Shown here in pieces: positions 2,902-16,572 of a stretch of DNA of 64,000 nt. Origin of the DNA: Escherichia coli (GTDB lineage Bacteria; Pseudomonadota; Gammaproteobacteria; Enterobacterales; Enterobacteriaceae); assembly GCF_044324875.1 (NCBI RefSeq), contig NZ_CP172185.1. The stretch is one strand, 5' to 3'. Under the pieces are notes generated by a model. It was not told the DNA's origin, made no database searches, and saw only the letters and a program-made list of their open reading frames with translations. How positions within the stretch are numbered: the stretch's first letter is position 1; each line of letters starts with the position of its first letter. The translations under genes were made by a program, and so were the position numbers.

Positions 2902-3702
2902 AGCTGGGGGACTGGTATCTTTCAGCTCACTGATTTTGTTGCTGAACCTGATATATCCTTCGGTTTTCCACAACCAGGGGAAGGGTGTCATCATAAGGCG
3001 TGATGACACCCTGAATTCCCATCCTGTATCTGCAGAAAATTTTTCGTAAATAAATTAATTTAATAACTAAAAAGAAAATACAATAAGCAAAATATCAATT
3101 ACAGCATGTTCGTTTGTTTAAAGAACCTGCTGGTCCTGCCATTAATATTACCTGCTGATTGCTTCACATCCGGATTCCTCGCACTGCGCGCGGGTTATTG
3201 TTTCGTTTTCGGCCACGGGGTCGCCAGGGCTCTGTTTGCAGGCCATGATGGCCTGACCTGTACTGTTTCTCAGGCACTGAGATGTCCGTTTACGCCATTT
3301 GTTCCCGGATATCCTTAACCTCTGACGTTTGTTCCCTGCCCCTCTGTCTGATAACGAATACGCTCACAACGCACAGTACTGAACAATACCGACAACAACA
3401 TGTCTTACATGAAATTCGCTGTAACATCCACCGGAAAACATTTTCAGATATCGGATGAGGTACTACTTCCATTGACAGCGCGAGGTAACAAAATTGATGG
3501 TAACTCTGACCATTAACCGTAAACCGCAGGGTATTTTCAGTAAATCACCGGCAACGCCGCTGCAGGATAAAACGGACACAGCATACAAAATGAAGGCCGG
3601 TGACCAGATACCACAGTTGAACGATAAACAGAAACCTGCTGATAAAACACCGTGGCGACATGACAAAACGCCAGAGCAAAAACCGTAAGCGCATTATTCG
3701 TC

Positions 3703-4005
3703 TTGTGGAACTCTGGCCTGAGTCATTCAACCGGGAAAAAAACAAAACCACTTAAAGTGGGGATACCTGACGACCTGATACAGGATATCGCCATCCGAGA
3801 ACTGGCGTTTGGCGCTGGTACATTACATGCAGCAGTGGCGTCTTATGTGCAGTCTCCGTGCTATTACCGTGCGTTAATAGCAGGTGGCGCCCGTTACAAC
3901 CTGAACGGTCAGCCGTGCGGGGAAGTGACACCACAGGAACAGAAAGAGGCAGAGACCCGTTTAATGATGCTGAATGACCGACGAAAAGACAGAAAACCTC
4001 GTTGA
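3703..4005 (+). CDS. FinO/ProQ-like RNA-binding domain protein (possibly frameshifted with upstream ORF 3494..3688)
   Basis: KPLKVGIPDDLIQDIA...YNLNGQPCGEVTPQEQKEAETRL resembles the ProQ N-terminal FinO domain (RPLKIGIFQDL...DLDGNPCGELDEQ); track start is TTG. Confidence 0.4.
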   Translation: MWNSGLSHSTGKKTKPLKVGIPDDLIQDIAIRELAFGAGTLHAAVASYVQSPCYYRALIAGGARYNLNGQPCGEVTPQEQKEAETRLMMLNDRRKDRKPR

Positions 4006-4022
4006 CTGCACAACAGCGCTGT

Positions 4023-4619
4023 TCACTGAGCTGTAATCAATGTACAGCGCTGTACCGGGCGATGGGTAATACCGGTCACAACCGGTAACCCCAGAGACAA
4101 TGCAACTGTTTTTAACGCAATATACTGGCCGGATGTATCACCCCGGGCAGCCTGAAAACACCTTTCCACCCGGCATTGTCCGTCAGCACTTATCACCCGC
4201 CATGTCTGTTGCAATAAATCCACCCGTTGCGAACATTCTTCATCAACCGTGGCACTGACCCGTGGATGGCAAATGCTCGTCTGGCTGAGCAGCAACAGGC
4301 ATCGCATTGTTGCTCCTCCATGTTGTTCCCGCAACCAGCGTAATACCACCGGTGGTGCTGGACTGGCCGTGTGATTACGTTCAGTAATACGCTCGTGCAC
4401 CTGTCGGTAAAAGGAAGTACAGAATGCATGAATCTGTTGTCCGTTGATGTTTCCTTCTGCCGAATGGAGCGTGAAGTGAAATGCCAACAGATTTGGCCAG
4501 TGGTCCACCGCCTGCTGAACAAAACGCCGGATTTCCCCCGGCGCTGAAAGTAAGGCTTCGGTTATTTGCACTATTTTATCCCCGTTGAATTTTGTTAAGC
4601 CGGTGCAGACCAGACACAC
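4023..4619 (-). CDS. Inovirus Gp2-family (YagK/YfjJ-like) protein, paralog 1
   Basis: 198 aa; same overall architecture as the two downstream paralogs (LAFHFTLH ... MRCLLLLSQT). Confidence 0.45.
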   Translation of the reverse strand: MCLVCTGLTKFNGDKIVQITEALLSAPGEIRRFVQQAVDHWPNLLAFHFTLHSAEGNINGQQIHAFCTSFYRQVHERITERNHTASPAPPVVLRWLREQHGGATMRCLLLLSQTSICHPRVSATVDEECSQRVDLLQQTWRVISADGQCRVERCFQAARGDTSGQYIALKTVALSLGLPVVTGITHRPVQRCTLITAQ

Positions 4620-4848
4620 GGAAAGCGCACATCGACACCGGCACGGTACGATACAAACACCAGTGACTGGCGGGACGAAGGGAATGACGAATCAGTCAGG
4701 AAATGATGACAAACAGTTGGCTGGCCAGAGGGTGCCAGCAGAAAGATGAGCGGGAGTTGTCAGCGCCAGCACCAGGGACAGGGCTGATTTCCACAATACC
4801 AGCGCCGGCATTTCGCACATTGCCAGCGTACTGGCATTACAACACGTT

Positions 4849-5085
4849 TCATGCTGCTGCTCCTCGTGATTCCTCAATTCGCTGCTGCATCCACTGCTCC
4901 ACTTCACTTTTGTACCAGCGGCTGCTGCGCCCCAGTTTGATGGGTTTAGGGAAATGGCCTTCACTGATCAGCTTGTAAAACCATTTGTCGGTCATACCAG
5001 TGAAGCTGGTGATGTAGTTCATGTCGATCAGGGGATCGTCGGCACGCAGCAATACGCTGTCGTGACCTGTCATTGAGGTCAACAT
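4849..5085 (-). CDS. alpA: AlpA-family phage/island transcriptional regulator
   Basis: 78 aa; MNYITSFTGMTDKWFYKLISEGHFPKPIKLGRSSRWYKSEVEQWM is the AlpA HTH signature. Confidence 0.8.
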   Translation of the reverse strand: MLTSMTGHDSVLLRADDPLIDMNYITSFTGMTDKWFYKLISEGHFPKPIKLGRSSRWYKSEVEQWMQQRIEESRGAAA

Positions 5086-5153
5086 GGTCAGAATGTCCTC
5101 TGTGAGATTTATGAATGTTGGGCAAATGCGGGTGAATCTGCTGAGCTGAGCTT

Positions 5154-5756
5154 TCAGAGCTGGCCTGCTACGGGATACCAGGGATTACCGGCGAGGTAAC
5201 GGGCTTCCGGATCGCGCACACCACGACGATCGCGGGCGAAATCACTGAACGCCCATATCAGCTCTTTGAGTCTCTCTTCGCAGTCCGGTGAACAACTGTC
5301 CAGCACCACATCCCGGGTTATCTGTTTCTGGTACGGTGCTGCTTCACCCGGTGACGCGAAGCCCAGTACGTTGCTCCAGGCATCCAGAATCAACCGGTCC
5401 AGCTCAGGGCCGTCGAAATATTCCTGTCTGACGCACAGCACCACGTGGTATTCCGGTTTTTCAGGATGACGGGTCAGGAGCCAGCAGAGGTCGCGTCCGG
5501 GGGTTGCATTCATCAGCGCACTGACGGTTTCGATAAAGGCCATACCGAACCAGGTTTTTCTGTCGCTGAAGATGTTGCCATGTTCCCCCGGCAGACGAAG
5601 CAGGATCCGCCGTATCCTGGAGCCGGACTGCTCGCGCAACACACGGTTGAGAACGCCGATGATTTTGTTCTGATAAGATGGCCAGAAGGGCGCCATGCTA
5701 TAGTCGAAATAAGGGATAGCATTCATAAGATATGTTCCGTTATACGCAGCCCACAA
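5154..5756 (-). CDS. Inovirus Gp2-family (YfjI/YagK-like) protein, paralog 2
   Basis: 200 aa; island backbone position immediately after alpA. Confidence 0.55.
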   Translation of the reverse strand: MWAAYNGTYLMNAIPYFDYSMAPFWPSYQNKIIGVLNRVLREQSGSRIRRILLRLPGEHGNIFSDRKTWFGMAFIETVSALMNATPGRDLCWLLTRHPEKPEYHVVLCVRQEYFDGPELDRLILDAWSNVLGFASPGEAAPYQKQITRDVVLDSCSPDCEERLKELIWAFSDFARDRRGVRDPEARYLAGNPWYPVAGQL

Positions 5757-6082
5757 CGCGTCCTGCCCGTGGATGCGCTGACGTGTTATGGCTTGCGTAT
5801 GGGGTTGATGGAATAAGTGAAAAACCGCGGCAGAACGGGAAGATCAGGTAACCGACAAGGGACAGAACACCGGATGCAGGTTCAGAATGAATGATCTCCG
5901 TTGACTTCGGTTCACATCATTAAGCAGGACAGTAAGGTTTTACCGACGGAGTGTTTCCAGGAGCGAAAGCAGAGAAAAATACCGTTGCATGACTTCAGGA
6001 CGACTTTTTCAGAAAACGAGCTAAGGGCGTCAGCCAACGTCCTGTAGCATAAGCTCAGGCACCGGATGTCGTTTTACAGGGC

Positions 6083-6814
6083 TCACCTGCCATCCAGCAG
6101 ACGCCCCGGCCCACGACTGCAACCATAATTACGTTGCCCGGAACCGTCATGCTGCTTCGTCTCATATTTCACGAGATAACTGGCTCTGTTCCGGGCTTTC
6201 TGCAGCGCTTCCACATCACCACGCTTGATCCAGAGAACAGCGGCTTCACCCGGCTTTTTTTCTGAAGCCTTCCTGGTATCAGAACATCCACCCGACAAAG
6301 GCGTGTCATCGGAAGAAGGGCGAGCATCAGACGATGCTGGTTTACGGGAAGGCGTCCACCTGGAAAAATGGACCAGGCCATCGCCTTGCCAGGCCTCAAG
6401 ATGCAGGGCGCTGCACCATGCCTCCAGGATCATCGTCGCCAGCGAAGATGGTTCGCTGAAATCCCCTGGCGAGCACCAGGTATCTTTGTTGAGCAGCAAT
6501 ATCACGTGATAATGTTTCCTGCCTTTTTCCTTGCCAAACTCCCGACACCAGAAATAACGCAGAGTGGTTGCACGCACACGCTTGTTGGCACGTCGTTTTT
6601 TCCGCTGGTAAGCCTGGATTTTGGCTTTCAGGGATTCGAAAAAACGAGAAATCACCGCTGAATCCGGATCGGGATCCATGATGGTGACAGGCATATACTC
6701 AGGGAAACGTAAATCCACCCGGATTAACGAGACGGCACGGTGCTGCGACAGGGCACTGTCGAGAAGGCTGTCAAAACGGGATAACCAGTAAGCATTGTGT
6801 ATTGGTTGATTCAT
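6083..6814 (-). CDS. Inovirus Gp2-family (YfjJ/YagK-like) protein, paralog 3
   Basis: 243 aa; LIRVDLRFPEY ... HYHVILLLNKD pattern. Confidence 0.6.
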   Translation of the reverse strand: MNQPIHNAYWLSRFDSLLDSALSQHRAVSLIRVDLRFPEYMPVTIMDPDPDSAVISRFFESLKAKIQAYQRKKRRANKRVRATTLRYFWCREFGKEKGRKHYHVILLLNKDTWCSPGDFSEPSSLATMILEAWCSALHLEAWQGDGLVHFSRWTPSRKPASSDARPSSDDTPLSGGCSDTRKASEKKPGEAAVLWIKRGDVEALQKARNRASYLVKYETKQHDGSGQRNYGCSRGPGRLLDGR

Positions 6815-6849
6815 GATGAGAGATCTCCGTTGATTTGGATTGACTTCAC

Positions 6850-8390
6850 ATCATTAATCACCGCGGTAAAACTTTACGGCATCATGTCATTAAGCAATGC
6901 TACAACTCTCTGATTAAGAGTGATTGAAACGGAACAAACCATCCCGGAACGAAAAGATAATCCTGCACACAGCAGCAAAACACGCAACAACAGCATGAAT
7001 GGATTTAAAAACGACATGGACGACGAGAAAAGCCTGAAGGGAAAAGGATCCACAGAACATTCGAACAAAACACCAGAAACGCAACCAGAACGCTTCCTGG
7101 CAATGCAAATCAACAACAACGCCAAAACCTACAGCTTAATCACACAACTCAATCACGAATGCGAATGACACGTTTAAAACCTGTTTACAGATAACGCCGT
7201 AACACGATCATCCCCATCACCATCAGAATCGATTTTCTCATCCCGAAAATGTTACGTTTCACTACGCACCATAAAAACGATTAACCATCGATAACGTAAA
7301 TCTCATCTGAATCAAAAAACCAAAACCAATCATCACACTTTCGCAATGCAAGAAGAAAAACCACATCATGACGAAAACAATGACCTTACATGAAAAAGCA
7401 AAACGTCAGGAATCGTTAATGCCTCAATCTGATTGTTATCAAAACATCCAGAAAGTCGTTTAACAGAATCGTCGTAAGCACATCGAAAAGAACGTCAGAT
7501 CACCTCAGGAAAGTTCGGGTTGATTTAGCGTAAAGATACTTTTCTCAGCTTAACGTCGAAACACAAACCAAAAACCACAAACAACCAAAGCTCAGGAAAG
7601 GTTAAACGTCACATCAGTAAAATCGAATAGCAGATTGATTGCTTAAACAGGAAAGATTGTTTTACAGCAGCATTAAACTGATTTAGTTAACGTAAAATCA
7701 GAACTGACAGGTTTACTAACTTGGATGTGTATCAGTTCAAAAATGTGTACAGCAATGCGTAATGAAACACATTTAAAGGAGATTAATGGGAAAAGTGTGT
7801 AAATGCGTAAACATGCACTAATGAATCACTGAAGGAATACATACAAAACGACTTAATGAAAACATAAAAGGACCTAATGGAAAAGGTGTATATAATACCA
7901 TATCCGACATTCTCAACATCTTAAGACATCCATGCAGACTGAATGTTGGTTTCAGTTTTTCACGGTAAGCATGAATCTTTTCTGTTCAAAAGCAGAGCAG
8001 ATTTACTCTGGAATTATTTTTCTTACTCCGTATTCTGTACAGCAAAAACTTGTGCTAACTTTACAGCAAACCATCATAATCAGCGTCTGTAGTCCCATCG
8101 CTTTACCCCATGAAAGTGAATCCATATGATGTGAGAGAGATAAGTCATCGTATCCGGTAAACACTGCTTACTATAACATAAGATCATTCAGTCAGTTTTA
8201 TCTCTGAACTGACGATTATGGCATGCTCATTTATATGGCTCACAGAGGAGTGTTATTATCCGTAAGCTTTAATCATCAAATCACATGACCATACCAAACT
8301 GGCGCTATATCAGCTCATTTGACGCTCATTCCCTTTAGATTTCTTTATGTGTTTTTTGTCGATAATTAAAATGTAATATAAATTTAATAT
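6850..8390. other. About 1.5 kb ORF-poor, strand-skewed (A+C-rich top strand) intergenic region with recurrent short motifs
   Basis: No ORF of 60 aa or more on either strand between about 7170 and 7930; recurring AACGT(C/A)A..ATC, TCAGGAAAG and TAATGRA motifs. Confidence 0.6.
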
Positions 8391-8397
8391 TTTCACA

Positions 8398-9621
8398 TCA
8401 TAAACACCATTTAAAACCATCATCCTGAACATCATACAACAATATATTTTTACTAAAGCATGAATTGTATATTTCTATTAATTCAGGAAAATTATCAGGA
8501 TTCACCTTTAAATTCAACTGAATGTTACACTTAATTTCACTCAGCAGTTCTTCATGCGTGGATTTTATTATCCCTTTATCATAATCTATAAATACACACA
8601 TGTTTTTCATGAATTCAAACCCTTTTCCTGTATACAGTTTGATGAATGCCACAAGAGCAAACATTTCAAGATGCAGCCATAATGCCACGTGAGTTTTTCG
8701 CAAAGTATAAAAAATTGAATTCGCCACTTTTTTACTTATTGCTCTTTTGTACTGTGAGTGCGCCAGATTCAGTAGTGGCAATTCTCTCTCGATAAATGAA
8801 AGTGAAAAAGGCGGGTAAATTGATGTCGGAAATATTTCAGGTCTTATGATATTTTCGATTTCCACCATAAATCTATCCATAGAACGAAAATCATTTTCTT
8901 TTTTTATTCTGGTATAGAGACCGCCTTTATTCCTTACTGCGACTTTTTTTCGTGCTATCCCCCCCAACATTTCCTCTAATTGTTTATTTATCTTCGTATC
9001 ATTAAATACAACCATTCTTCTTATCATCCTGGGAAGGATGATAATATCAGAGCTTGAATCACTTGAACGGCAATTATTATTGATCCATGCAACTTCAAGT
9101 TGAAGTATCGGAACATTAAATTCTCTGGGGTTAATAACTCTCTGATATTGTTTTTTGTATGCGTTTTCATTAAGATATTCTCTGCTGTAGAGAAACTTAT
9201 AGCAATATAATCTGACAATATCCTTTATGTAAGATTTAAATGAGTCACCTGTAACAGATATATTTTTTCTTCTCAGTAACTCCTGTGTATTGAGCCATTC
9301 CCGTGACCGGAGTACTCCATTATGAAGACTTTTTCTTACTTGCTTTGAATTGCGCAATTGATGTAATATTTTTGCGTCCTCAACAATTCTCTTTCCCGTT
9401 TGATTTCTTGCAGCATCTATTACTCTGTCAAATATCTCCCGGTCCAGACTTTTGTCATATTTACTGATTATACGACAAATATTCCTGACCCGACGGTTCT
9501 CTTTATTTCGTTTCCATAACTGATAATGATCATCACATAACCTCAGGGCATTTGCCTCATCAAATTCTGAAACAGGATTGCTGCATTTTTTATTCCGACA
9601 GATACCTTTGTTTTTAGCCAT
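8398..9621 (-). CDS. Hypothetical protein, 407 aa, low-GC orphan
   Basis: Long ATG-initiated ORF with purine-rich SD; Lys/Arg/Asn-rich; N-terminal Cys-x4-Cys ... Cys-x2-His; no family recognised. Confidence 0.6.
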   Translation of the reverse strand: MAKNKGICRNKKCSNPVSEFDEANALRLCDDHYQLWKRNKENRRVRNICRIISKYDKSLDREIFDRVIDAARNQTGKRIVEDAKILHQLRNSKQVRKSLHNGVLRSREWLNTQELLRRKNISVTGDSFKSYIKDIVRLYCYKFLYSREYLNENAYKKQYQRVINPREFNVPILQLEVAWINNNCRSSDSSSDIIILPRMIRRMVVFNDTKINKQLEEMLGGIARKKVAVRNKGGLYTRIKKENDFRSMDRFMVEIENIIRPEIFPTSIYPPFSLSFIERELPLLNLAHSQYKRAISKKVANSIFYTLRKTHVALWLHLEMFALVAFIKLYTGKGFEFMKNMCVFIDYDKGIIKSTHEELLSEIKCNIQLNLKVNPDNFPELIEIYNSCFSKNILLYDVQDDGFKWCL

Positions 9622-9721
9622 ACTCTTCTTCCCGTCAATGGAAAAATTTTCACGTCCATATTACCTGACTGAGAGGCCGGATTAATGTGATCCGGTTCAG
9701 TGAAATCAACAGGATAACGGT

Positions 9722-10606
9722 ATGTCATTCAGCCATTCTTCCCTCTCCGCACACGTAAAGTCACATCTGACCTTTCTTCCTGAAGAAATTCGCCAGAAAA
9801 TCCTTGAACATCTTCGCAGCGTCATTCAGTACGAACCCGTTATTGGCATTATGGGTAAATCCGGTGCCGGAAAAAGCAGCCTGTGCAATGCCATTTTTCA
9901 GTCCCGTGTCTGCGCCACGCATCCGCTGAACGGCTGCACCCGTCAGGCTCATCGTCTTACCTTTCAGCCCGGTGAACGAAGAATGACGCTGGTCGATCTG
10001 CCCGGCACTGGCGAAACACCACAGCATGATCAGGAATACCGGGCACTTTACAGTCAGTTACTGCCCGAACTGGATCTGATTATCTGGATCCTGCGGGCTG
10101 ATGAACGTGCGTATGCTGCCGACATCGCCATGCATCAGTTTTTACTGAATGAAGGTGCCGATCCCTCGCGTTTTCTGTTTGTTCTCAGCCATGCCGATCG
10201 CATCCACCCGGCTGAAGAATGGAACAACCAGAGCAGCACGCCATCCCGTCAGCAGGAACTCTCACTGGCGACGGTGACAGCCCGGGTGGCAACCCTGTTC
10301 CCTTCATCATTTCCGGTACTCCCCATAGCCGCTCCTGCCGGCTGGAATCTTCCGGCATTTGTGTCTCTGATGATCCACGCCCTGCCACCACAGGCAACCA
10401 GCGCGGTTTATTCGCATATCCGGAATGAAAAGCGCACTGCGCAGGATCAGCAACACGCACAGCAGGCTTTTGGTGACGCCATCGGCCAGAGTTTTGACGC
10501 TGCCATTGCCCGGTTCAGCTTTCCGGCCTGGATGCTGCAGCTTCTGCGCAAAGCCCGTGATCGCATTATCCGCCTGCTGATCACACTGTGGGATCGCCTG
10601 TTCTGA
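9722..10606 (+). CDS. YeeP/YfjP-family GTPase (50S ribosome-binding GTPase-like)
   Basis: 294 aa; P-loop GIMGKSGAGKSS and DLPGTGE switch motif. Confidence 0.85.
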   Translation: MSFSHSSLSAHVKSHLTFLPEEIRQKILEHLRSVIQYEPVIGIMGKSGAGKSSLCNAIFQSRVCATHPLNGCTRQAHRLTFQPGERRMTLVDLPGTGETPQHDQEYRALYSQLLPELDLIIWILRADERAYAADIAMHQFLLNEGADPSRFLFVLSHADRIHPAEEWNNQSSTPSRQQELSLATVTARVATLFPSSFPVLPIAAPAGWNLPAFVSLMIHALPPQATSAVYSHIRNEKRTAQDQQHAQQAFGDAIGQSFDAAIARFSFPAWMLQLLRKARDRIIRLLITLWDRLF

Positions 10607-10791
10607 ATGTCCCCGCTTTTTGACCGGCCCCGGCGATAACCAGGAAACGCATTTCCGGTTGCGTCACCACAATGCTGAAGGGCTTCGGTAAACCCTCATT
10701 CATTTCATCCATCAGGCCGCGTCTTCTCCGTGAGACGCGGCTTTTTCATTGATTACGTCATTCAGTCTTAACCACTGATAAGGAGCAAAGT

Positions 10792-11610
10792 ATGCGATTA
10801 GCCAGTCGTTTTGGTTATGCGAACCAGATACGCCGTGACCGTCCGCTGACCCGTGAAGAGCTGATGCACCATGTGCCCGGGATTTTCGGGGAAGATAAAC
10901 ACACCTCCCGGAGCCGGAACTATACATACATCCCCACCATCACCGTGCTGGAAAGCCTGCAGCGGGAAGGCTTTCAGCCATTCTTCGCCTGCCAGACCCG
11001 CGTACGTGACCCGGGTCGCCGGGGGTATACCAAACACATGCTGCGTCTGCGCCGTGACGGGGAGATAAACGGACAACATGTCCCTGAAATTATTCTGCTC
11101 AACTCTCATGACGGTACCTCCAGCTACCAGATGCTGCCGGGTTACTTCAGGTTCGTCTGCCAGAACGGATGCGTCTGCGGTCAGTCTCGGGGGGAAGTGC
11201 GTGTTCCGCACCGGGGAAATGTGGTGGACAGAGTCATTGAAGGGGCTTACGAGGTGGTGGGCGTGTTTGACCGGATAGAGGAGAAGCGTGATGCCATGCA
11301 GTCGCTGGTCCTGCCGCCACCGGCACGCCAGGCGCTGGCACAGGCGGCACTGACTTACCGTTATGGTGACGAACATCAGCCCGTCACCACCGCCGACATT
11401 CTGACACCACGACGCCGGGAGGATTACGGTAAGGACCTGTGGAGTGCTTATCAGACCATCCAGGAGAATATGCTGAAAGGCGGGATTTCCGGTCGCAGTG
11501 CAAAAGGAAAACGTATCCATACCCGGGCCATTCACAGCATTGATACCGATATAAAACTCAACCGCGCATTGTGGGTGATGGCAGAAACGCTGCTGGAGAG
11601 CATGCGCTGA
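10792..11610 (+). CDS. DUF932-family protein (YfjQ/YafZ-like)
   Basis: 272 aa; position after the GTPase gene as in CP4-type islands. Confidence 0.7.
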   Translation: MRLASRFGYANQIRRDRPLTREELMHHVPGIFGEDKHTSRSRNYTYIPTITVLESLQREGFQPFFACQTRVRDPGRRGYTKHMLRLRRDGEINGQHVPEIILLNSHDGTSSYQMLPGYFRFVCQNGCVCGQSRGEVRVPHRGNVVDRVIEGAYEVVGVFDRIEEKRDAMQSLVLPPPARQALAQAALTYRYGDEHQPVTTADILTPRRREDYGKDLWSAYQTIQENMLKGGISGRSAKGKRIHTRAIHSIDTDIKLNRALWVMAETLLESMR

Positions 11611-11691
11611 TGCCGTTTCCCTGAGTGAGGGAATCATTCAGCTTTCGTTCCTGAAAAACACACATTTATTTGTTATTTAAGGCGTTATCTC

Positions 11692-12171
11692 ATGAAAACC
11701 GTTTCTCAGAATACCCCCACAATTTATTCAGCTACAACACCAGAGAATAATCCGCCTCAGTTGGTTGCCAGCCTCGTCCCTGATGAACAGCGCATCAGCT
11801 TCTGGCCGCAGCATTTTGGCCTCATTCCACAGTGGGTGACCCTGGAGCCCCGTGTCTTCGGCTGGATGGACCGTCTGTGCGAAGACTACTGCGGTGGTAT
11901 CTGGAATCTGTACACCCTGAACAACGGCGGGGCATTTATGGCCCCCGAACCGGATGATGATGATGACGAAACATGGGTACTGTTCAATGCCATGAACGGT
12001 AACCGCGCTGAAATGAGCCCGGAAGCCGCCGGCATTGCCGCCTGTCTGATGACGTACAGTCATCACGCCTGCCGTACGGAGTGTTATGCCATGACGGTTC
12101 ATTATTACCGTCTGCGGGATTACGCCCTGCAGCATCCGGAATGCAGCGCCATTATGCGCATCATTGACTGA
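11692..12171 (+). CDS. Antirestriction protein, KlcA/ArdB family (YfjX/YafX-like)
   Basis: 159 aa; acidic DDDDDE stretch, conserved island order. Confidence 0.75.
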   Translation: MKTVSQNTPTIYSATTPENNPPQLVASLVPDEQRISFWPQHFGLIPQWVTLEPRVFGWMDRLCEDYCGGIWNLYTLNNGGAFMAPEPDDDDDETWVLFNAMNGNRAEMSPEAAGIAACLMTYSHHACRTECYAMTVHYYRLRDYALQHPECSAIMRIID

Positions 12172-12186
12172 AAGGGGGCCGGAACA

Positions 12187-12663
12187 ATGCAACAGATTTC
12201 CTTTCTGCCCGGAGAAATGACAACCAGAGAGCGCAGCCTCATTCAGCGGGCCCTGAAAGCCCTGGACCGCCATCTTCATGAACCCGGCGTGGCCTTCACC
12301 TCCACGCATGCGGCACGGGAATGGCTGATTCTGAACATGGCGGGACTGGAGCGTGAAGAATTCCGGGTGCTGTATCTGAATAACCAGAATCAGCTGATTG
12401 CCGGTGAAACCCTCTTCACCGGCACCATCAACCGCACGGAAGTCCATCCCCGGGAAGTGATTAAACGCGCCCTGTACCACAATGCCGCTGCCGTGGTGCT
12501 GGCGCACAATCACCCGTCCGGTGAAGTCACACCCAGCAAGGCAGACCGCCTTATCACGGAACGTCTGGTACAGGCGCTGGCCCTGGTGGATATCCGGGTG
12601 CCGGACCATCTGATAGTCGGTGGCAGCCAGGTTTTCTCCTTTGCCGAACATGGTCTGCTTTAA
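12187..12663 (+). CDS. RadC-like JAB-domain protein (YeeS/YfjY-like)
   Basis: 158 aa; JAMM-like HNHPSGEVTPSKAD motif. Confidence 0.85.
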   Translation: MQQISFLPGEMTTRERSLIQRALKALDRHLHEPGVAFTSTHAAREWLILNMAGLEREEFRVLYLNNQNQLIAGETLFTGTINRTEVHPREVIKRALYHNAAAVVLAHNHPSGEVTPSKADRLITERLVQALALVDIRVPDHLIVGGSQVFSFAEHGLL

Positions 12664-12725
12664 CCCGTCACAACCACATCACACCTGTTTTCACTTTTAT
12701 CTTCTGTCTTCAGAGGTATCCCATT

Positions 12726-12947
12726 ATGAAAATCATCACCCGTGGTGAAGCCATGCGTATTCACCAACAGCATCCTGCATCCCGTCTTTTTCCGTTCTGT
12801 ACCGGCAAATACCGCTGGCACGGCAGCACTGAAACGTATACCGGTCGTGAAGTGCAGGATATTCCCGGTGTGCTGGCTGTGTTTGCAGAACGTCGTAAGG
12901 ACAGTTTTGGCCCGTATGTCCGGCTGATGAGCGTCACCCTGAACTGA
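12726..12947 (+). CDS. YeeT-family (DUF987) small protein
   Basis: 73 aa, MKIITRGEAMRIHQQHP...; position before the antitoxin gene. Confidence 0.75.
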   Translation: MKIITRGEAMRIHQQHPASRLFPFCTGKYRWHGSTETYTGREVQDIPGVLAVFAERRKDSFGPYVRLMSVTLN

Positions 12948-12961
12948 GTCAGGGCATTCTG

Positions 12962-13594
12962 ATGAGCAGAATTATCACCATCACAGTGTATACGCTGGAT
13001 GAACTTTCCTGCCCGGCACGGGAAAAAGCCCGCGACGGGTACCGTCAGCATCATGCTGACAGCAACTGGTATGAAAACGTGTATGAGGACGTCAGGGAGG
13101 TCTGTGGCATTTTCGGAATTGACCTCTGCCAGCGTGTTATCCGTCTCAGCAACGGCAGGTTTATGGAAGAGCCGTGCATCTGGTTCAGCGGATTCTGCAG
13201 CCAGGGACGGAGCCTGTTTTGAAGGACGCTGGCACTGGCAGTCAGCAACAACCAGGAGAGTCCGGGAGTATGCCCCGCAGAACCGTGAGCTTCATCGTAT
13301 CGCGGATGCCCTGCAGGCGGTGCAGAAACGTAACTTCTGGCAACTGCAGGCTGAAATCCACCACCGGGGACGTTACTGCCATCCGTTATCACTGTTACCC
13401 GGAACAGTCCGACTGGTCAGGCTATGACAGCCGATGCGGAAGCCGCTGTCAGCGAAGCCCTGCGCGACCTGGCCTTCTGGCTGTACCGTCAACTGGAAAA
13501 CGAGTACGACCAGATGACCTCAGACGCCGCTGTGGATGAGGCCATTCTCATCAATGCATACATCTTCACCGAAACCGGTCAGCGCACCGGCTGA
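12962..13594 (+). pseudogene. Apparently disrupted gene: protein-like segments in three reading-frame pieces (12962-13222, about 13200-13427, 13424-13594)
   Basis: All three segments translate to plausible protein sequence but are separated by frame changes; the last piece (57 aa) is below the ORF-track threshold. Confidence 0.35.
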
Positions 13595-13643
13595 CCTGTC
13601 ATCGTTAAACCATTCTTAACCACTTTTCAGAGAGGATTTTATC

Positions 13644-14012
13644 GTGTCAGACACACTCTCCGGGATAACTCATCCCGACGACAATCACGACCGCCCCTGG
13701 TGGGGGCTTCCCTGCACAGTGAGGCCCTGTTTTGGCGCCCGTCTGGTGCAGGAGGGTAACCGCCTGCATTACCTTGCCGACCGCGCCGGCATCAGAGGCC
13801 GGTTCAGCGATGCGGATGCATACCATCTGGACCAGGCCTTTCCGCTGCTGATGAAACAACTGGAACTCATGCTCACCAGCGGTGAACTGAATCCCCGCCA
13901 TCAGCATACCGTGACACTGTATGCGAAGGGGCTGACCTGCGAAGCCGACACCCTCGGCAGTTGTGGTTACGTTTATCTGGCTGTTTATCCGACGCCCGAA
14001 ACGAAAAAGTAA
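13644..14012 (+). CDS. Type IV antitoxin, CbeA/YeeU/YfjZ family
   Basis: 122 aa, near-identical to recalled YeeU (MSDTL.G.T.PDDNHDRPWWGLPCTV...TPETKK). Confidence 0.9.
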   Translation: MSDTLSGITHPDDNHDRPWWGLPCTVRPCFGARLVQEGNRLHYLADRAGIRGRFSDADAYHLDQAFPLLMKQLELMLTSGELNPRHQHTVTLYAKGLTCEADTLGSCGYVYLAVYPTPETKK

Positions 14013-14102
14013 ACCACCGGAATAACCTTCTGCTCCGGCCAGGTGTTTTCACCACGCCACTCTCCCCATAATTTAATCTCTCATATCAGGAAAATCTTCA
14101 GT

Positions 14103-14513
14103 ATGAAATTATTACCCGACACACATGTACGGGAGGCATCGTGCTGCCCGTCTCCCGTCACCATCTGGCAGACACTGCTCATCCGTCTGCTGGACCAGCA
14201 CTATGGCCTCACACTGAATGACACACCGTTCGCTGATGAACGTGTGATTGAGCAGCATATTGAGGCCGGCATTTCACTGTGCGATGCGGTGAACTTTCTC
14301 GTTGAAAAATACGCACTGGTACGTACCGACCAGCCGGGATTCAGCGCAGGAGCCCCGTCGCAGTTAATCAACAGCATCGATATTCTCCGGGCCCGCCGGG
14401 CAACAGGCCTGATGACACGTAATAACTACAGAATGGTAAATAACATTACCCTGGGTAGCATCCGGGGGCGAAACGATGAAACTTTCCCTGACGCTGGAAG
14501 CCGACAGCATTAA
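14103..14513 (+). CDS. Type IV toxin, CbtA/YeeV/YpjF family
   Basis: Start trimmed to MKLLPDT; [67 protein letters not shown] matches YeeV. Confidence 0.85.
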
Positions 14514-14898
14514 CGTGCAGGCACTGAACATGGGGCGCATTGTCGTTGACATTGATGGTGTAAATCTCGCTGAACTGATTAACAAGGTCGCTGAATACGG
14601 TTATTCACTCCGCGTGGTGGATGAACGTGACGCTACCGAAACACCGGCGACTTCTGCCAGCTCTCATCAGTTGCCGGAAGACAATACAGTGATACAGAGC
14701 GTGATGCCATTAACCACTGAAACAGCGCTGGATATCCTCATTGCGTGGCTGCAGGACAATATCGACTGCGGGTCCGGAATTATTTTCGACAACGATGAGG
14801 ATAAAACGGATTCGGCAGCACTGCTGCCCTGTATTGAACAGGCCAGGGAGGATATCCGTACCCTGCACCAACTGCAACTTCTGCACCAGAACCGGTGA
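14476..14898 (+). CDS. YeeW-like protein
   Basis: 140 aa; overlaps the 3' end of the toxin gene, as yeeW follows yeeV in CP4-44. Confidence 0.55.
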
Positions 14899-14982
14899 AT
14901 CTCACTCACCAGACTTCATTCTCCTGACGCCAGCCTGAACAGAGCTGGCGTTTTCGTTTATAAACAGAAAGGAAACCCCATA

Positions 14983-15768
14983 ATGTCATATATCACAATC
15001 CCCCACCCGAACGCGGTCAACGGACATACAGCCGTTATCTGTTCCACAAGTATCAGACACATCCTGGCTGTACGAAAGAGTACACTGCTGCAAATCGACA
15101 CGCTTATCCGGCAACTGACAGAAATCTCAGCACTGACGGAAAGTATTGGCGGTAAAGCCGCCCCGGACTGGGCCATGAAACAGGATTTTCGCTGTGGCTG
15201 CTGGCTGAAGGAGAAACAGGAAACCGCAATGAAAGCCATTACCCGGAATCTTGACCGCGAAATCTGGCGTAACCTGATGCAGCGTTCCGGGATGCTTTCC
15301 TTAATGGATGCACAGGCACGTGATACATGGTACAGGTCACTGGAATATGATAATTTTCCGGAAATCAGTGAAGCGAACATTCTGAGCACATTTGAACAAC
15401 TGCACCAGAATAAGGATGAAGTGTTTGAGCGGGGGGTGATCAACCTCTTCAAAGGGCTGAGCTGGGATTACAAAACCAACTCACCCTGTAAATTTGGCAG
15501 TAAAATTATCGTCAACAATCTGGTGAGGTGGGACCAGTGGGGATTTCATCTTATCAGTGGAATGCAGGCAGATCGCCTGGCTGACCTGGAAAGAATGTTG
15601 CATCTGCTCAGCGGTAAACCGATCCCCGACAACCGGGGAATATCACCATTAATCTGGATGACCACATACAGTCCGTTCAGGGTAAAGGACGCTATGAAGA
15701 TGAGATGTTCATCATTAAATACTTTAAGAAGGGAGCTGCACACATCACTTTCAAAAGGCTGGAGCTGA
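14983..15768 (+). CDS. Hypothetical protein, last gene of the island (possibly DUF4942-like)
   Basis: 261 aa ATG-initiated ORF; family assignment from memory is tentative. Confidence 0.5.
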   Translation: MSYITIPHPNAVNGHTAVICSTSIRHILAVRKSTLLQIDTLIRQLTEISALTESIGGKAAPDWAMKQDFRCGCWLKEKQETAMKAITRNLDREIWRNLMQRSGMLSLMDAQARDTWYRSLEYDNFPEISEANILSTFEQLHQNKDEVFERGVINLFKGLSWDYKTNSPCKFGSKIIVNNLVRWDQWGFHLISGMQADRLADLERMLHLLSGKPIPDNRGISPLIWMTTYSPFRVKDAMKMRCSSLNTLRRELHTSLSKGWS

Positions 15769-15935
15769 TTGACAGAATTAACGATATAATAGCCAGGCAC
15801 TTTCCTTCTGTGCTCTCAGCCTGACCCCGAGTTTGATTCCCTTTCGATATCAAAAGGGACTGCGGGTACAAAAGAGGGTACATCTTTCACCAAACCAAAC
15901 AAAATAAACCAATATCAACACGATAGAAGCATTCT

Positions 15936-15957
15936 TCGATTCCGAGTCCGGCACCAA
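15936..15957 (+). repeat. 3' fragment of tRNA-Phe (pheU attachment-site remnant)
   Basis: TTCGATTCCGAGTCCGGCACCA matches the pheU 3' end (one G fewer); upstream sequence does not match the rest of the tRNA. Confidence 0.7.
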
Positions 15958-15967
15958 ATTCATATAA

Positions 15968-15993
15968 ACGGACCTCCACGGAGGTCCGTTTTT
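15968..15993 (+). terminator. Rho-independent terminator (native pheU terminator)
   Basis: CGGACCTCC-AC-GGAGGTCCG stem followed by TTTTT. Confidence 0.6.
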
Positions 15994-16572
15994 CGTTTCA
16001 GGACGCCACAATTTAAGCGTTCTGCCTAAAAATCATTTCTACCGAACTCAACCAGATTCTCCCCACATCACCAGCAATTTGCGGGCATATCCCAATTCGG
16101 GGAAATGTGTTCCTGAGCTATAGCACTGACTGACGTGAAATGTCGTGCGGCCCCGTGATGCTGTTGAACGTCAAATGACGTCATCAGGAGCGTAACGCAT
16201 CCATAAAGCACAACATCGGGCAGAACGCCGACTGATGAGATTTTCTGAATGAGAACAAAGAGAAATGTATCAGTCCGCTTGCTCATGCAAAGACTAACAA
16301 TCCATAAAAATAGTAAGCGCTCCGGGCAATTTTCCATGGATTATTTTCTGAACATTTTTCTTTGGCAAAGATGATGAATTTTGATGGTAAGGAATATTAC
16401 TTCTGGTTCTCAGTAAAATCCTTTCGTAATACTATGTGATCAAGAAGTTTATGGCTGGTAAAAATAACGTCTTGCATTCACCAATAATATGTAAATAAAC
16501 CCATCTATAGATGGTAAAAATAGGTTGTGGCAATTATCATTGCATCATTCCCTTTTCGAATGAGTTTCTATT

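What the first reader, a model, noticed from the sequence alone, without database searches (positions are those of the whole stretch)
8398..9621. Low-GC 407-aa orphan ORF in the island cargo slot, with no recognisable family
This is the only long gene in the window that I cannot place in a family. It is markedly more AT-rich than its neighbours and rich in Lys/Arg/Asn, with an N-terminal Cys-x4-Cys ... Cys-x2-His spacing that could be a small metal-binding or nucleic-acid-binding module. The low GC and position are what one sees for abortive-infection or other single-gene defence proteins, but function is unassigned.
Basis: partly seen in the sequence, partly recalled or inferred. Interest (0 to 1): 0.8.

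Follow-up and report, generated by a model that had tools for sequence, protein, structure and literature searches.

The report
Degenerate HNH-like island backbone gene
The AT-rich 407-aa gene is real and under selection, but it is a conserved core gene of a family of enterobacterial genomic islands, descended from an HNH nuclease that has lost its catalytic residues, and not a one-off defence cargo gene; what it does is untested.

Summary
There is an intact 407-aa ORF at 8398-9621 (-), GC 0.34 against 0.55 for its neighbour, pI 9.6, with an N-terminal C-x4-C...C-x2-H module that is invariant in all 15 aligned relatives.

The interpretation mostly does not hold.
- **Not an orphan.** The gene is intact in 967 of 5,426 complete E. 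coli genomes (UPEC 536, APEC O1; UTI89 by its UniProt entry). Relatives at 26-37% identity occur in Klebsiella, Citrobacter, Salmonella and others.
- **Not cargo.** In about 10 independent contexts it holds the same place: divergent from the YeeP/YfjP-type GTPase (or WYL) operon, and usually followed by alpA and a Gp2/YagK-type rep gene. Defence cargo lies farther out.
- **Selected and separately controlled.** dN/dS is about 0.28. Low GC is a family trait. It has its own conserved promoter-like element, an invariant GTAATAT plus a dyad with covarying arms.
- **HNH-derived.** The two most divergent members keep an HNH motif and hit phage HNH families (E=8.8e-7). In the query clade His→W/F/Y/K, Asn→Asp and Asn→Arg.
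- **No other family match.** Pfam, NCBIfam, PADLOC and PDB give nothing, and no fold outside the family matches.

Best reading (inferred): a zinc-ribbon, pseudo-HNH DNA-binding factor of the island's regulation/replication core. A defence role is not excluded.

The parts
8398..9621 (-). 407-aa ORF (WP_045147348.1 in PGAP, 'hypothetical protein'); coordinates include the stop codon
   Evidence: intact in 967/5426 complete E. coli genomes; dN/dS 0.28
9526..9600 (-). N-terminal CCCH zinc-ribbon-like module (residues 8-32: C8, C13, C29, H32)
   Evidence: Invariant in 15/15 aligned members; pLDDT about 89 for residues 11-40
9007..9105 (-). Degenerate HNH (beta-beta-alpha) motif, residues 173-205: LEVAW179...D192IIILP197..IR201RMV
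   Evidence: AF2 strands 175-179 and 193-197 plus helix 198-219. Aligns to the E[VI]SH...N...INRM motif of P0034/P0038 and to Pfam-verified phage HNH proteins. His->W, Asn->D, Asn->R.
8401..8919 (-). C-terminal mostly helical domain (residues 235-407) with invariant Y236, L281-P282, L286, R293, E319, Y385-N386; no recognisable relatives
9658..9664 (-). Invariant GTAATAT (then A/G, G), a -10-like element 43 nt upstream of the ORF start codon
   Evidence: 10/10 loci. The only occurrence of GTAATAT[AG]G in the 64-kb window, and absent upstream of K-12 yfjP. Retained in the two loci that lack the GTPase.
9677..9695 (.). Dyad CCGGAT-N7-ATCCGG centred 22 nt upstream of the GTAATAT motif (the -35 region); arm sequences differ between loci but pairing is kept
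   Evidence: Sliding-centre control: mean perfect run 4.56 at offset -22, against about 1.2 (max 2.1) at the other 83 centres tested
9722..10606 (+). Divergently transcribed YeeP/YfjP-type (MMR_HSR1) GTPase gene, 100 bp from the ORF start
   Evidence: divergence correlates with that of the ORF (Spearman 0.65)
6083..6814 (-). Inovirus Gp2 / YagK-YfjJ-type Rep-like gene, downstream of and co-directional with the ORF
   Evidence: homologous position in other genera
4849..5085 (-). AlpA-like HTH gene. In other genera it directly follows the ORF; in this E. coli island it lies farther downstream.
   Evidence: tblastn with 8 AlpA proteins, E 1e-25 to 5e-35

Best explanation
The ORF is a core (backbone) gene of a family of Enterobacterales integrative islands, the type that carries GTPase - DUF932 - antirestriction - RadC - CbeA/CbtA. 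It sits at the junction of two divergent backbone modules, has its own operator-bearing promoter, and in most relatives reads into alpA and a Gp2/YagK-type rep gene.

The protein has three parts: an N-terminal CCCH zinc ribbon, a central domain descended from an HNH (beta-beta-alpha-Me) nuclease, and a novel helical C-terminal domain. In the query's clade the HNH general-base His, the structural Asn and the metal-ligand Asn are replaced by W/F/Y/K, Asp and Arg.

The most likely mechanism is that it no longer cuts DNA and instead binds nucleic acid through the zinc ribbon and the dead HNH scaffold. It would then act on the island itself, either as a regulator of the divergent promoters or as an accessory factor for AlpA/Rep-driven excision and replication.

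Shown: the gene is real and selected, its position is conserved, it descends from HNH nucleases, the catalytic residues are lost, and it has a conserved promoter and dyad.

Inferred: loss of nuclease activity, DNA binding, and a regulatory or life-cycle role.
For: - **Conserved position.** Found in E. coli, Klebsiella (19), Citrobacter (20) and six further contigs from Logan read assemblies whose organisms are not given (28, 74-78). The gap to the GTPase gene is 92-105 bp. ORF->AlpA->YagK/REP order holds in 7 loci.
- **Family size.** 26 representatives among 1.84e9 proteins. Structural neighbours are only Enterobacterales family members.
- **HNH link.** P0038 hits phrog_8660 'HNH endonuclease' at E=8.8e-7 and phrog_1271 at 1.5e-4; P0034 hits phrog_1271 at 0.073. 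A weak Cas9d-profile hit (E=0.019) lies over the motif. The query clade against P0034+P0038 by hhalign gives 99.7% probability, E=7.9e-26, 368 columns. The motif register against a Pfam-verified phage HNH is shown.
- **Substitutions.** H->W/F/Y/K, N->D and N->R in 13 of 13 clade members.
- **Fold.** A beta-beta-alpha element sits at that place in an AF2 model with pLDDT 79.
- **Selection and composition.** dN/dS 0.28. Low GC in all homologues. pI 9.6.
- **Promoter and dyad.**
- **No defence-model hits.**
- **Not in phages or plasmids.**
Against: - No experiment bears on this protein, and DNA binding is not demonstrated.
- The query and its clade consensus do not themselves match any HNH profile. 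The link is transitive, through two divergent members.
- Fold searches gave no HNH hit, and the isolated-domain model was too poor to use.
- E176, D192 and R201 are invariant or nearly so, which could mean a remodelled but still active site.
- Two loci lack the GTPase, and K-12 islands have the GTPase without this gene, so any partnership is facultative.
- The protein evolves faster than its neighbours (27-55% identity, against 50-82%). That pattern is also seen in conflict genes.
Confidence: 0.45

Rival explanations
1. It is an anti-phage or anti-plasmid defence or abortive-infection effector. It would act alone or as a two-gene system with the divergent GTPase (GTPase as sensor or switch, HNH-derived protein as effector), kept silent by low GC/H-NS and an operator until infection.
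For: Islands of this type carry defence genes: type I RM, TIR, McrBC and GmrSD, and AbpAB and RnlAB next to yfjP in K-12. The gene is tightly linked to the GTPase gene and co-diverges with it (Spearman 0.65). The GTPase has a partial match to the LeoBC defence model (E=3.8e-7). The protein evolves fast, is AT-rich and basic, and has nuclease ancestry.
Against: There is no PADLOC hit for the ORF or its intact-HNH relatives. Its backbone position has stayed fixed over deep divergence, unlike swappable cargo. The catalytic His is lost in the whole GTPase-linked clade. Two loci keep the ORF without the GTPase. dN/dS of 0.28 shows no sign of positive selection overall.
Confidence: 0.25
2. It is still an active nuclease or nickase with a remodelled active site (E176/D192/R201 plus metal), used for processing island DNA, for example nicking at an origin together with the Gp2-like Rep.
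For: E176, D192, P197 and R201 are invariant or nearly so within the clade. It is adjacent to alpA and a rolling-circle-type rep gene. It has HNH ancestry.
Against: By established knowledge of the family, loss of the general-base His inactivates the characterised HNH enzymes (for example Cas9 H840A). An aromatic residue occupies that position in 12 of 13 clade members. The Gp2-type protein already supplies a nickase.
Confidence: 0.12
3. It is a divergent reverse transcriptase, as one UniProt entry for the Klebsiella homologue is named, possibly working with an RNA from the adjacent gene-less stretch.
For: The UniRef/UniProt name 'Reverse transcriptase' on P0016 / A0AAX3CP38. A 1.5-kb stretch without annotated genes lies next to the ORF in E. 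coli.
Against: No RVT or any other Pfam hit in any of 15 members. No DRT or retron hit in PADLOC. There is no YxDD motif or invariant Asp pair in the alignment. No Rfam hit in 5500-11000. The gene-less stretch is absent in other genera, where alpA follows within about 300 bp.
Confidence: 0.01
4. It is a decaying or functionless remnant that is merely carried along by the island.
For: This particular island is degraded: an integrase fragment, and frameshifted genes in near-identical copies.
Against: It is full length in 967 genomes. dN/dS is 0.28. Twenty residues are invariant across 21-37% identity. The promoter is conserved.
Confidence: 0.03

Closest known systems
HNH (beta-beta-alpha-Me) endonucleases, Pfam PF01844 type; phage families phrog_8660 and phrog_1271
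   Same: The family's two most divergent members keep the E-x-S-H...P-N-x-K-G-G...N...I-N-R-x-x-K-D motif and match phage HNH profiles. The query aligns to them over its full length and is predicted to have a beta-hairpin plus helix at that place. N-terminal Cys/His zinc modules are common companions of HNH domains (my own knowledge).
   Different: The query clade lacks the general-base His (W179), the Asn (D192) and the metal-ligand Asn/His (R201). It matches no HNH profile itself. It carries a roughly 170-aa helical C-terminal domain with no known relatives.
Backbone genes of E. coli CP4-57 / CP4-44 / CP4-6-type cryptic islands (yfjP/yeeP/ykfA GTPase, yfjQ DUF932, antirestriction, RadC, CbeA/CbtA, alpA, yfjJ/yagK)
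   Same: Same neighbourhood and the same set of partner genes.
   Different: The K-12 islands have no copy of this gene beside the GTPase gene. In CP4-57, alpA and yfjJ point toward yfjP, and AbpAB/RnlAB fill the interval. Here the ORF, Gp2-like gene, alpA and yagK all read away from the GTPase gene.
Divergent regulator pairs of mobilizable islands (for example alpA plus a luxR-family gene in PIME1 elements, bioRxiv 10.64898/2026.01.12.698999)
   Same: An island core with alpA, a rep gene and a second, separately promoted gene at a divergent junction, with immune systems as accessory cargo. In PIME1 both regulators are needed for excision.
   Different: PIMEs are a different element family (repA, traJ, trbJ, trbL). 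The second regulator there is LuxR-type, not HNH-derived. No experiment links this ORF to excision.
Septu PtuB and other HNH effectors of defence systems
   Same: An HNH-type domain encoded next to an NTPase gene on a mobile island.
   Different: The partner here is a small MMR_HSR1 GTPase, not an AAA15/21 ATPase. No PADLOC model matches. The catalytic His is absent. The comparison itself rests on my own knowledge of Septu.

Membership tests
HNH endonuclease superfamily (beta-beta-alpha-Me) | Significant sequence-profile match to an HNH family | tested here: not met
   The query, the clade consensus and 13 clade members match no HNH model in Pfam, NCBIfam or PHROGs. Only the sister members do: P0038 (E=8.8e-7, 1.5e-4) and P0034 (0.073). 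Homology of the query to those two is strong.
HNH endonuclease superfamily (beta-beta-alpha-Me) | General-base His at the end of strand 1 | tested here: not met
   W179 in the query; W/F/Y in 12 and K in 1 of 13 clade members; His only in P0034 and P0038
HNH endonuclease superfamily (beta-beta-alpha-Me) | Conserved Asn in strand 2, and Asn/His metal ligand in the helix | tested here: not met
   D192 and R201 in all 13 clade members; N and N in P0034/P0038
HNH endonuclease superfamily (beta-beta-alpha-Me) | Beta-hairpin followed by a helix (beta-beta-alpha fold) | tested here: inconclusive
   The AF2 model has E175-179, E193-197 and H198-219 with block pLDDT 71-93. No fold search returned an HNH structure, and the isolated-domain model was poor (pLDDT 62).
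Known anti-phage defence systems (PADLOC-DB 2.0) | Match to a defence-protein model | tested here: not met
   0 families at E<=1 for the query and at E<=10 for P0034/P0038
Island cargo / defence-hotspot gene | Variable presence and position; replaced by unrelated genes in related islands | tested here: not met
   Same junction position in about 10 contexts at 26-86% identity. Divergence tracks the neighbouring GTPase. Caveat: islands with a K-12-type layout lack the gene.
Reverse transcriptases (RVT_1; DRT/retron) | Palm-domain motifs including YxDD; Pfam RVT or PADLOC DRT/retron match | tested here: not met
Zinc-ribbon / treble-clef metal-binding modules | Four conserved Cys/His ligands with knuckle spacing | tested here: met
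   C8, C13, C29 and H32 are invariant in 15/15. Metal binding itself cannot be tested with these tools.

The most novel reading that the evidence does not exclude
The ORF, its covarying-dyad promoter and the divergent GTPase operon form a previously unrecognised control switch of a widespread class of enterobacterial islands. A pseudo-nuclease would sense a helper element or an invading DNA and trigger AlpA/Rep-dependent excision and replication. Alternatively, the GTPase and the HNH-derived protein are a new two-gene immune system embedded in the island backbone.
Probability: 0.15. Interest if true: 0.7.

Novelty: new variant of a known kind. Interest (0 to 1): 0.4.

Why it matters
The gene is in about 18% of complete E. 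coli genomes, including reference UPEC and APEC strains, yet it has no Pfam, NCBIfam or DUF family and no literature that I could find. Three results turn an 'orphan' into a testable candidate for how CP4-type islands are controlled: it is an HNH-derived pseudo-nuclease, it is a fixed backbone gene, and it has a conserved operator-like promoter. Those islands are ubiquitous and carry toxin-antitoxin, antirestriction and defence genes, but their life cycle is poorly understood. The result also warns against reading 'AT-rich gene in an island' as defence cargo.

Tried and rejected
- **Reverse-transcriptase lead** (from a UniProt name): no RVT, DRT or retron hit and no YxDD motif. Rejected.
- **Foldseek against AFDB50:** only family members.
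- **Foldseek against viral structures:** nothing at E<=0.001.
- **Modelling residues 98-228 alone**, to test the HNH fold: pLDDT 62, too poor to search with.
- **Profile searches against PDB sequences**, with the family and with the intact-motif pair: 0 hits.
- **Clade consensus sequences against PHROGs:** no HNH hit.
- **Search with P0038 for more intact-motif relatives:** only itself.
- **tblastn of the query against phages and plasmids:** no match.
- **Rfam scan of 5500-11000:** nothing.
- **Repeat and terminator scans of 6700-9800:** nothing above chance.
- **AlpA remnant in the 1.5-kb gap:** none.
- **Literature search by accession numbers:** none.
- **PIME preprint:** a different element family, useful only as an analogy.
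- **GTAATAT motif as the GTPase promoter:** not supported. It is absent upstream of K-12 yfjP and retained where the GTPase is missing.

Full report
**1. The observation**

The window has an ATG-initiated ORF of 407 codons at 8398-9621 on the minus strand.
- Its GC is 0.339. The adjacent GTPase gene is 0.550 and the whole window 0.505. GC is low at all three codon positions: 0.40, 0.31, 0.31.
- The protein is rich in L, K, I, R and N, with pI 9.6.
- The N-terminal Cys-x4-Cys...Cys-x2-His spacing is there (C8, C13, C29, H32).
- Pfam, NCBIfam, PADLOC and PDB sequence searches return nothing. PHROGs returns only noise.

**2. It is a real, selected gene and not an orphan**

The window is E. coli. 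PGAP calls the gene a hypothetical protein (WP_045147348.1).
- Megablast with the ORF alone finds it in 974 of 5,426 complete E. coli genomes. It is essentially full length in 967.
- There are two allele groups: >=99% identity (35 genomes) and about 91% (933 genomes). UPEC 536 and APEC O1 are among the carriers. UTI89 has an 86%-identical copy, seen as a UniProt entry in the AFDB search.
- Between alleles dN/dS is 0.28-0.37, against 0.19-0.21 for the neighbouring GTPase gene. That is purifying selection, not decay.
- Outside E. coli the family is very small. Only 26 representatives reach E<=1e-3 among 1.84 billion proteins, and 16-19 clusters are found in the 5.8-billion-protein collection.
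- Named members come from Citrobacter, Klebsiella and Salmonella. Foldseek against AFDB50 adds Serratia, Providencia and Lelliottia, and finds nothing outside the family.
- tblastn finds no copy in 50,697 phage records or 72,556 plasmids.

**3. Position: backbone, not cargo**

The window's island runs from about 3.5 kb to about 16.3 kb, between a LacI/PTS locus and cadC. The layout below comes from mapping the window onto annotated genomes.

| Gene | Window coordinates | Strand |
|---|---|---|
| YagK/YfjJ | 4023-4619 | - |
| AlpA-like | 4849-5085 | - |
| hypothetical | 5154-5756 | - |
| Gp2-like Rep | 6083-6814 | - |
| 1.5-kb stretch with no gene | 6815-8397 | |
| the ORF | 8398-9621 | - |
| GTPase | 9722-10606 | + |
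| DUF932, antirestriction, RadC, DUF987, CbeA, CbtA, DUF4942, integrase fragment | downstream of the GTPase | + |

I looked up the contigs that encode the distant homologues. The same junction recurs:
- The ORF and the GTPase gene are divergent, 92-105 bp apart, and the ORF is followed by alpA and a YagK/YfjJ or REP_ORF2-G2P gene in Klebsiella L002, Citrobacter L004, L009 and L012. L006 shows the GTPase and alpA before the contig ends. In L010 a cut gene lies in the GTPase position.
- The protein identities to the query in these loci are only 27-37%.
- In L011 and L013 the GTPase is missing. The next gene of that operon, a WYL regulator, takes its place, and the ORF and alpA/rep remain.
- Recognisable defence cargo (type I RM, TIR, BrxR, McrBC, GmrSD, AAA15/21) lies at the outer ends of these loci, not at this junction.
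- UPEC 536 has the same E. coli layout as the window.
- Across loci the ORF's divergence tracks the GTPase's (Spearman 0.65). It tracks AlpA (0.31) and Rep (0.24) less well. The pairs are not independent, so this is indicative only.
- The ORF is the fastest-evolving of the conserved neighbours: 27-55% identity where the GTPase is 50-73% and AlpA 51-82%.
- Low GC is a property of every homologue examined: 0.32-0.37, next to GTPase genes of 0.49-0.55. It is therefore a family trait, not a mark of recent acquisition.

One caveat. K-12's CP4-57 has a different layout. There alpA and yfjJ point toward yfjP, the interval holds AbpAB and RnlAB, and this gene is absent. So the gene is backbone for one layout of these islands, not for all of them.

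**4. Its own control region**

Aligning the upstream regions of 10 loci shows an invariant GTAATAT(A/G)G, 35-50 nt before the start codon. In the window it is at 9658-9664, minus strand.
- It is the only occurrence of that 9-mer pattern in the 64-kb window, and it is absent upstream of K-12 yfjP.
- A dyad lies exactly 22 nt upstream of it. Its arms differ in sequence but stay complementary:

| Locus | Arms |
|---|---|
| E. coli (window 9677-9695) | CCGGAT / ATCCGG |
| Citrobacter L004 | ATCCTGGC / GCCAGGAT |
| L006 | GCCGG / CCGGC |
| L012 | ATGCCG / CGGCAT |

- In a sliding-centre control, the mean perfect-pair run is 4.56 at that centre. It is about 1.2 (maximum 2.1) at the other 83 centres tested.
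- In three loci the loop is a perfect TTGACA.
- The element is kept in the two loci without the GTPase, so it belongs to the ORF.

I read it as a sigma-70-type promoter with an operator-like or hairpin-forming dyad over the -35 region. That reading is an inference. No transcription data were available.

**5. What the protein is**

The 15-sequence alignment has 20 invariant residues. They include the four zinc ligands, W109, Y139, R147, E176, P197, Y236, L281-P282, R293, E319 and Y385-N386.

The two most divergent members (P0034, P0038; 21-22% identity) read LE[VI]SH-YPN-KGG-N...N-[MV]-[LI]I-[SA]-P...INRM where the query reads LEVAWI...SDIIILPRMIRRMV.
- P0038 matches phage family phrog_8660 'HNH endonuclease' at E=8.8e-7 over residues 31-201, and phrog_1271 at 1.5e-4. 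P0034 matches phrog_1271 at 0.073.
- A weak NCBIfam Cas9d hit (E=0.019) lies over P0038 residues 143-189, which contain the motif (residues 153-179). Whether that part of the Cas9d profile is its HNH domain was not checked.
- tblastn of that segment against phages gives only E~1 hits. Those covering the motif fall in genes annotated as HNH endonucleases in two distinct phages. One of them, Rhodococcus phage Trina gp117, is a verified Pfam HNH (PF01844, E=1.9e-9), matched on residues 40-76, which include the aligned motif.
- Pairwise, P0038 and the Rctr197k HNH-like protein share 34% identity over 59 residues.
- hhalign of the query's clade (14 sequences) against P0034+P0038 gives 99.7% probability, E=7.9e-26, over 368 columns, and fixes the register.
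- In that register the general-base His is W/F/Y/K (W179 in the query), the Asn is Asp (D192), and the helix Asn is Arg (R201), in all 13 clade members in the 15-sequence alignment.
- The AlphaFold model (pLDDT 79.3, pTM 0.68) places a beta-hairpin (175-179, 193-197) and a helix (198-219) there.

Three UniProt entries among the structural neighbours are auto-named 'HNH endonuclease', and one is named 'Reverse transcriptase'. The RT name has no support.

The C-terminal 170 residues are helical and match nothing.

**6. How it most likely works**

Established knowledge of HNH enzymes says that loss of the general-base His abolishes cleavage. I therefore infer a pseudo-nuclease that keeps the zinc ribbon and the beta-beta-alpha scaffold for nucleic-acid binding. 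Given its fixed place at the divergent junction, its own operator-bearing promoter, and its usual read-through toward alpA and rep, the most economical role is regulator or accessory factor of the island's own expression, excision or replication. I put this at 0.45.

The evolutionary and structural statements are well supported. The functional ones are inference.

The main rival (0.25) is a defence function, alone or with the GTPase. In its favour:
- fast evolution;
- nuclease ancestry;
- the GTPase's partial LeoBC match;
- defence genes beside yfjP in K-12.

Against it:
- the fixed position over deep divergence;
- the lost catalytic His;
- no PADLOC hit;
- loci that keep the ORF without the GTPase.

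A remodelled active nuclease gets 0.12. Invariant E176, D192 and R201 leave it open.

**7. Novelty and verdict**

The protein family is undescribed. It has no Pfam or NCBIfam model, and I found no paper that cites its accessions. It is a divergent, apparently inactivated offshoot of a very well known fold, sitting in a well known type of island.

I rate it a new variant of a known kind, interest 0.4. It is worth a bench test because it is common in pathogenic E. coli and may be a handle on how these islands are controlled.

Noticed in passing
window 9658-9695 (minus strand), and the homologous sites in L002, L004, L006, L008-L013: An invariant GTAATAT(A/G)G, plus a dyad centred exactly 22 nt upstream whose arms covary between genera (5-8 bp). 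In three loci the loop is a perfect TTGACA. Two loci have G.T at one arm position on the ORF-sense strand, so a hairpin in RNA or ssDNA cannot be excluded.
   Followed up: partly
window 6815-8397: A 1.58-kb stretch with no annotated gene lies between the Gp2-like gene and the ORF. It is A-rich on the + strand (A 0.37, G 0.16; AT skew up to +0.37), GC 0.37. It has no Rfam hit, no AlpA remnant and no significant repeats. The Gp2-proximal 960 nt are 77% identical in UPEC 536; the ORF-proximal part is not conserved. In other genera alpA follows the ORF within about 300 bp. Its nature is unexplained.
   Followed up: partly
window 9722-10606: The YeeP/YfjP-type GTPase has a partial match (residues 183-284) to the PADLOC LeoBC model of the Eleos/dynamin-like defence system, E=3.8e-7, and a weak hit to mad3.
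   Followed up: no
window 4849-5085: The AlpA-like HTH protein matches the PADLOC candidate-system model PDC-M06B (E=6e-5). The island carries two YagK/Gp2-type genes (4023-4619 and 6083-6814).
   Followed up: no
window ~3500-16300: The island in this window looks degraded compared with relatives. Near-identical copies carry only an integrase fragment next to cadC and a frameshifted ProQ/FinO gene. The WYL/YafY regulator, a hypothetical gene and DUF905, which follow the GTPase in UPEC 536, are missing here: the GTPase is followed directly by DUF932 at 10792.
   Followed up: partly
P0018/P0039 (Salmonella); P0034/P0038: The Salmonella members carry a tandem duplication of the N-terminal CCCH module. 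The two intact-HNH members carry a second, different C-x2-C...C-x3-H ribbon in the place where the query clade has a low-confidence helical linker (residues ~45-100).
   Followed up: no
L005 (contig encoding P0034): The intact-HNH relative sits three genes downstream of a P4-type integrase, with no GTPase on the 4.5-kb contig. The catalytically intact and degenerate branches may therefore live in different island layouts.
   Followed up: no
UniProt A0AAX3CP38 / P0016 (Klebsiella michiganensis): The public name 'Reverse transcriptase' for this family member appears to be a mis-annotation. No RT signature was found in any member.
   Followed up: yes
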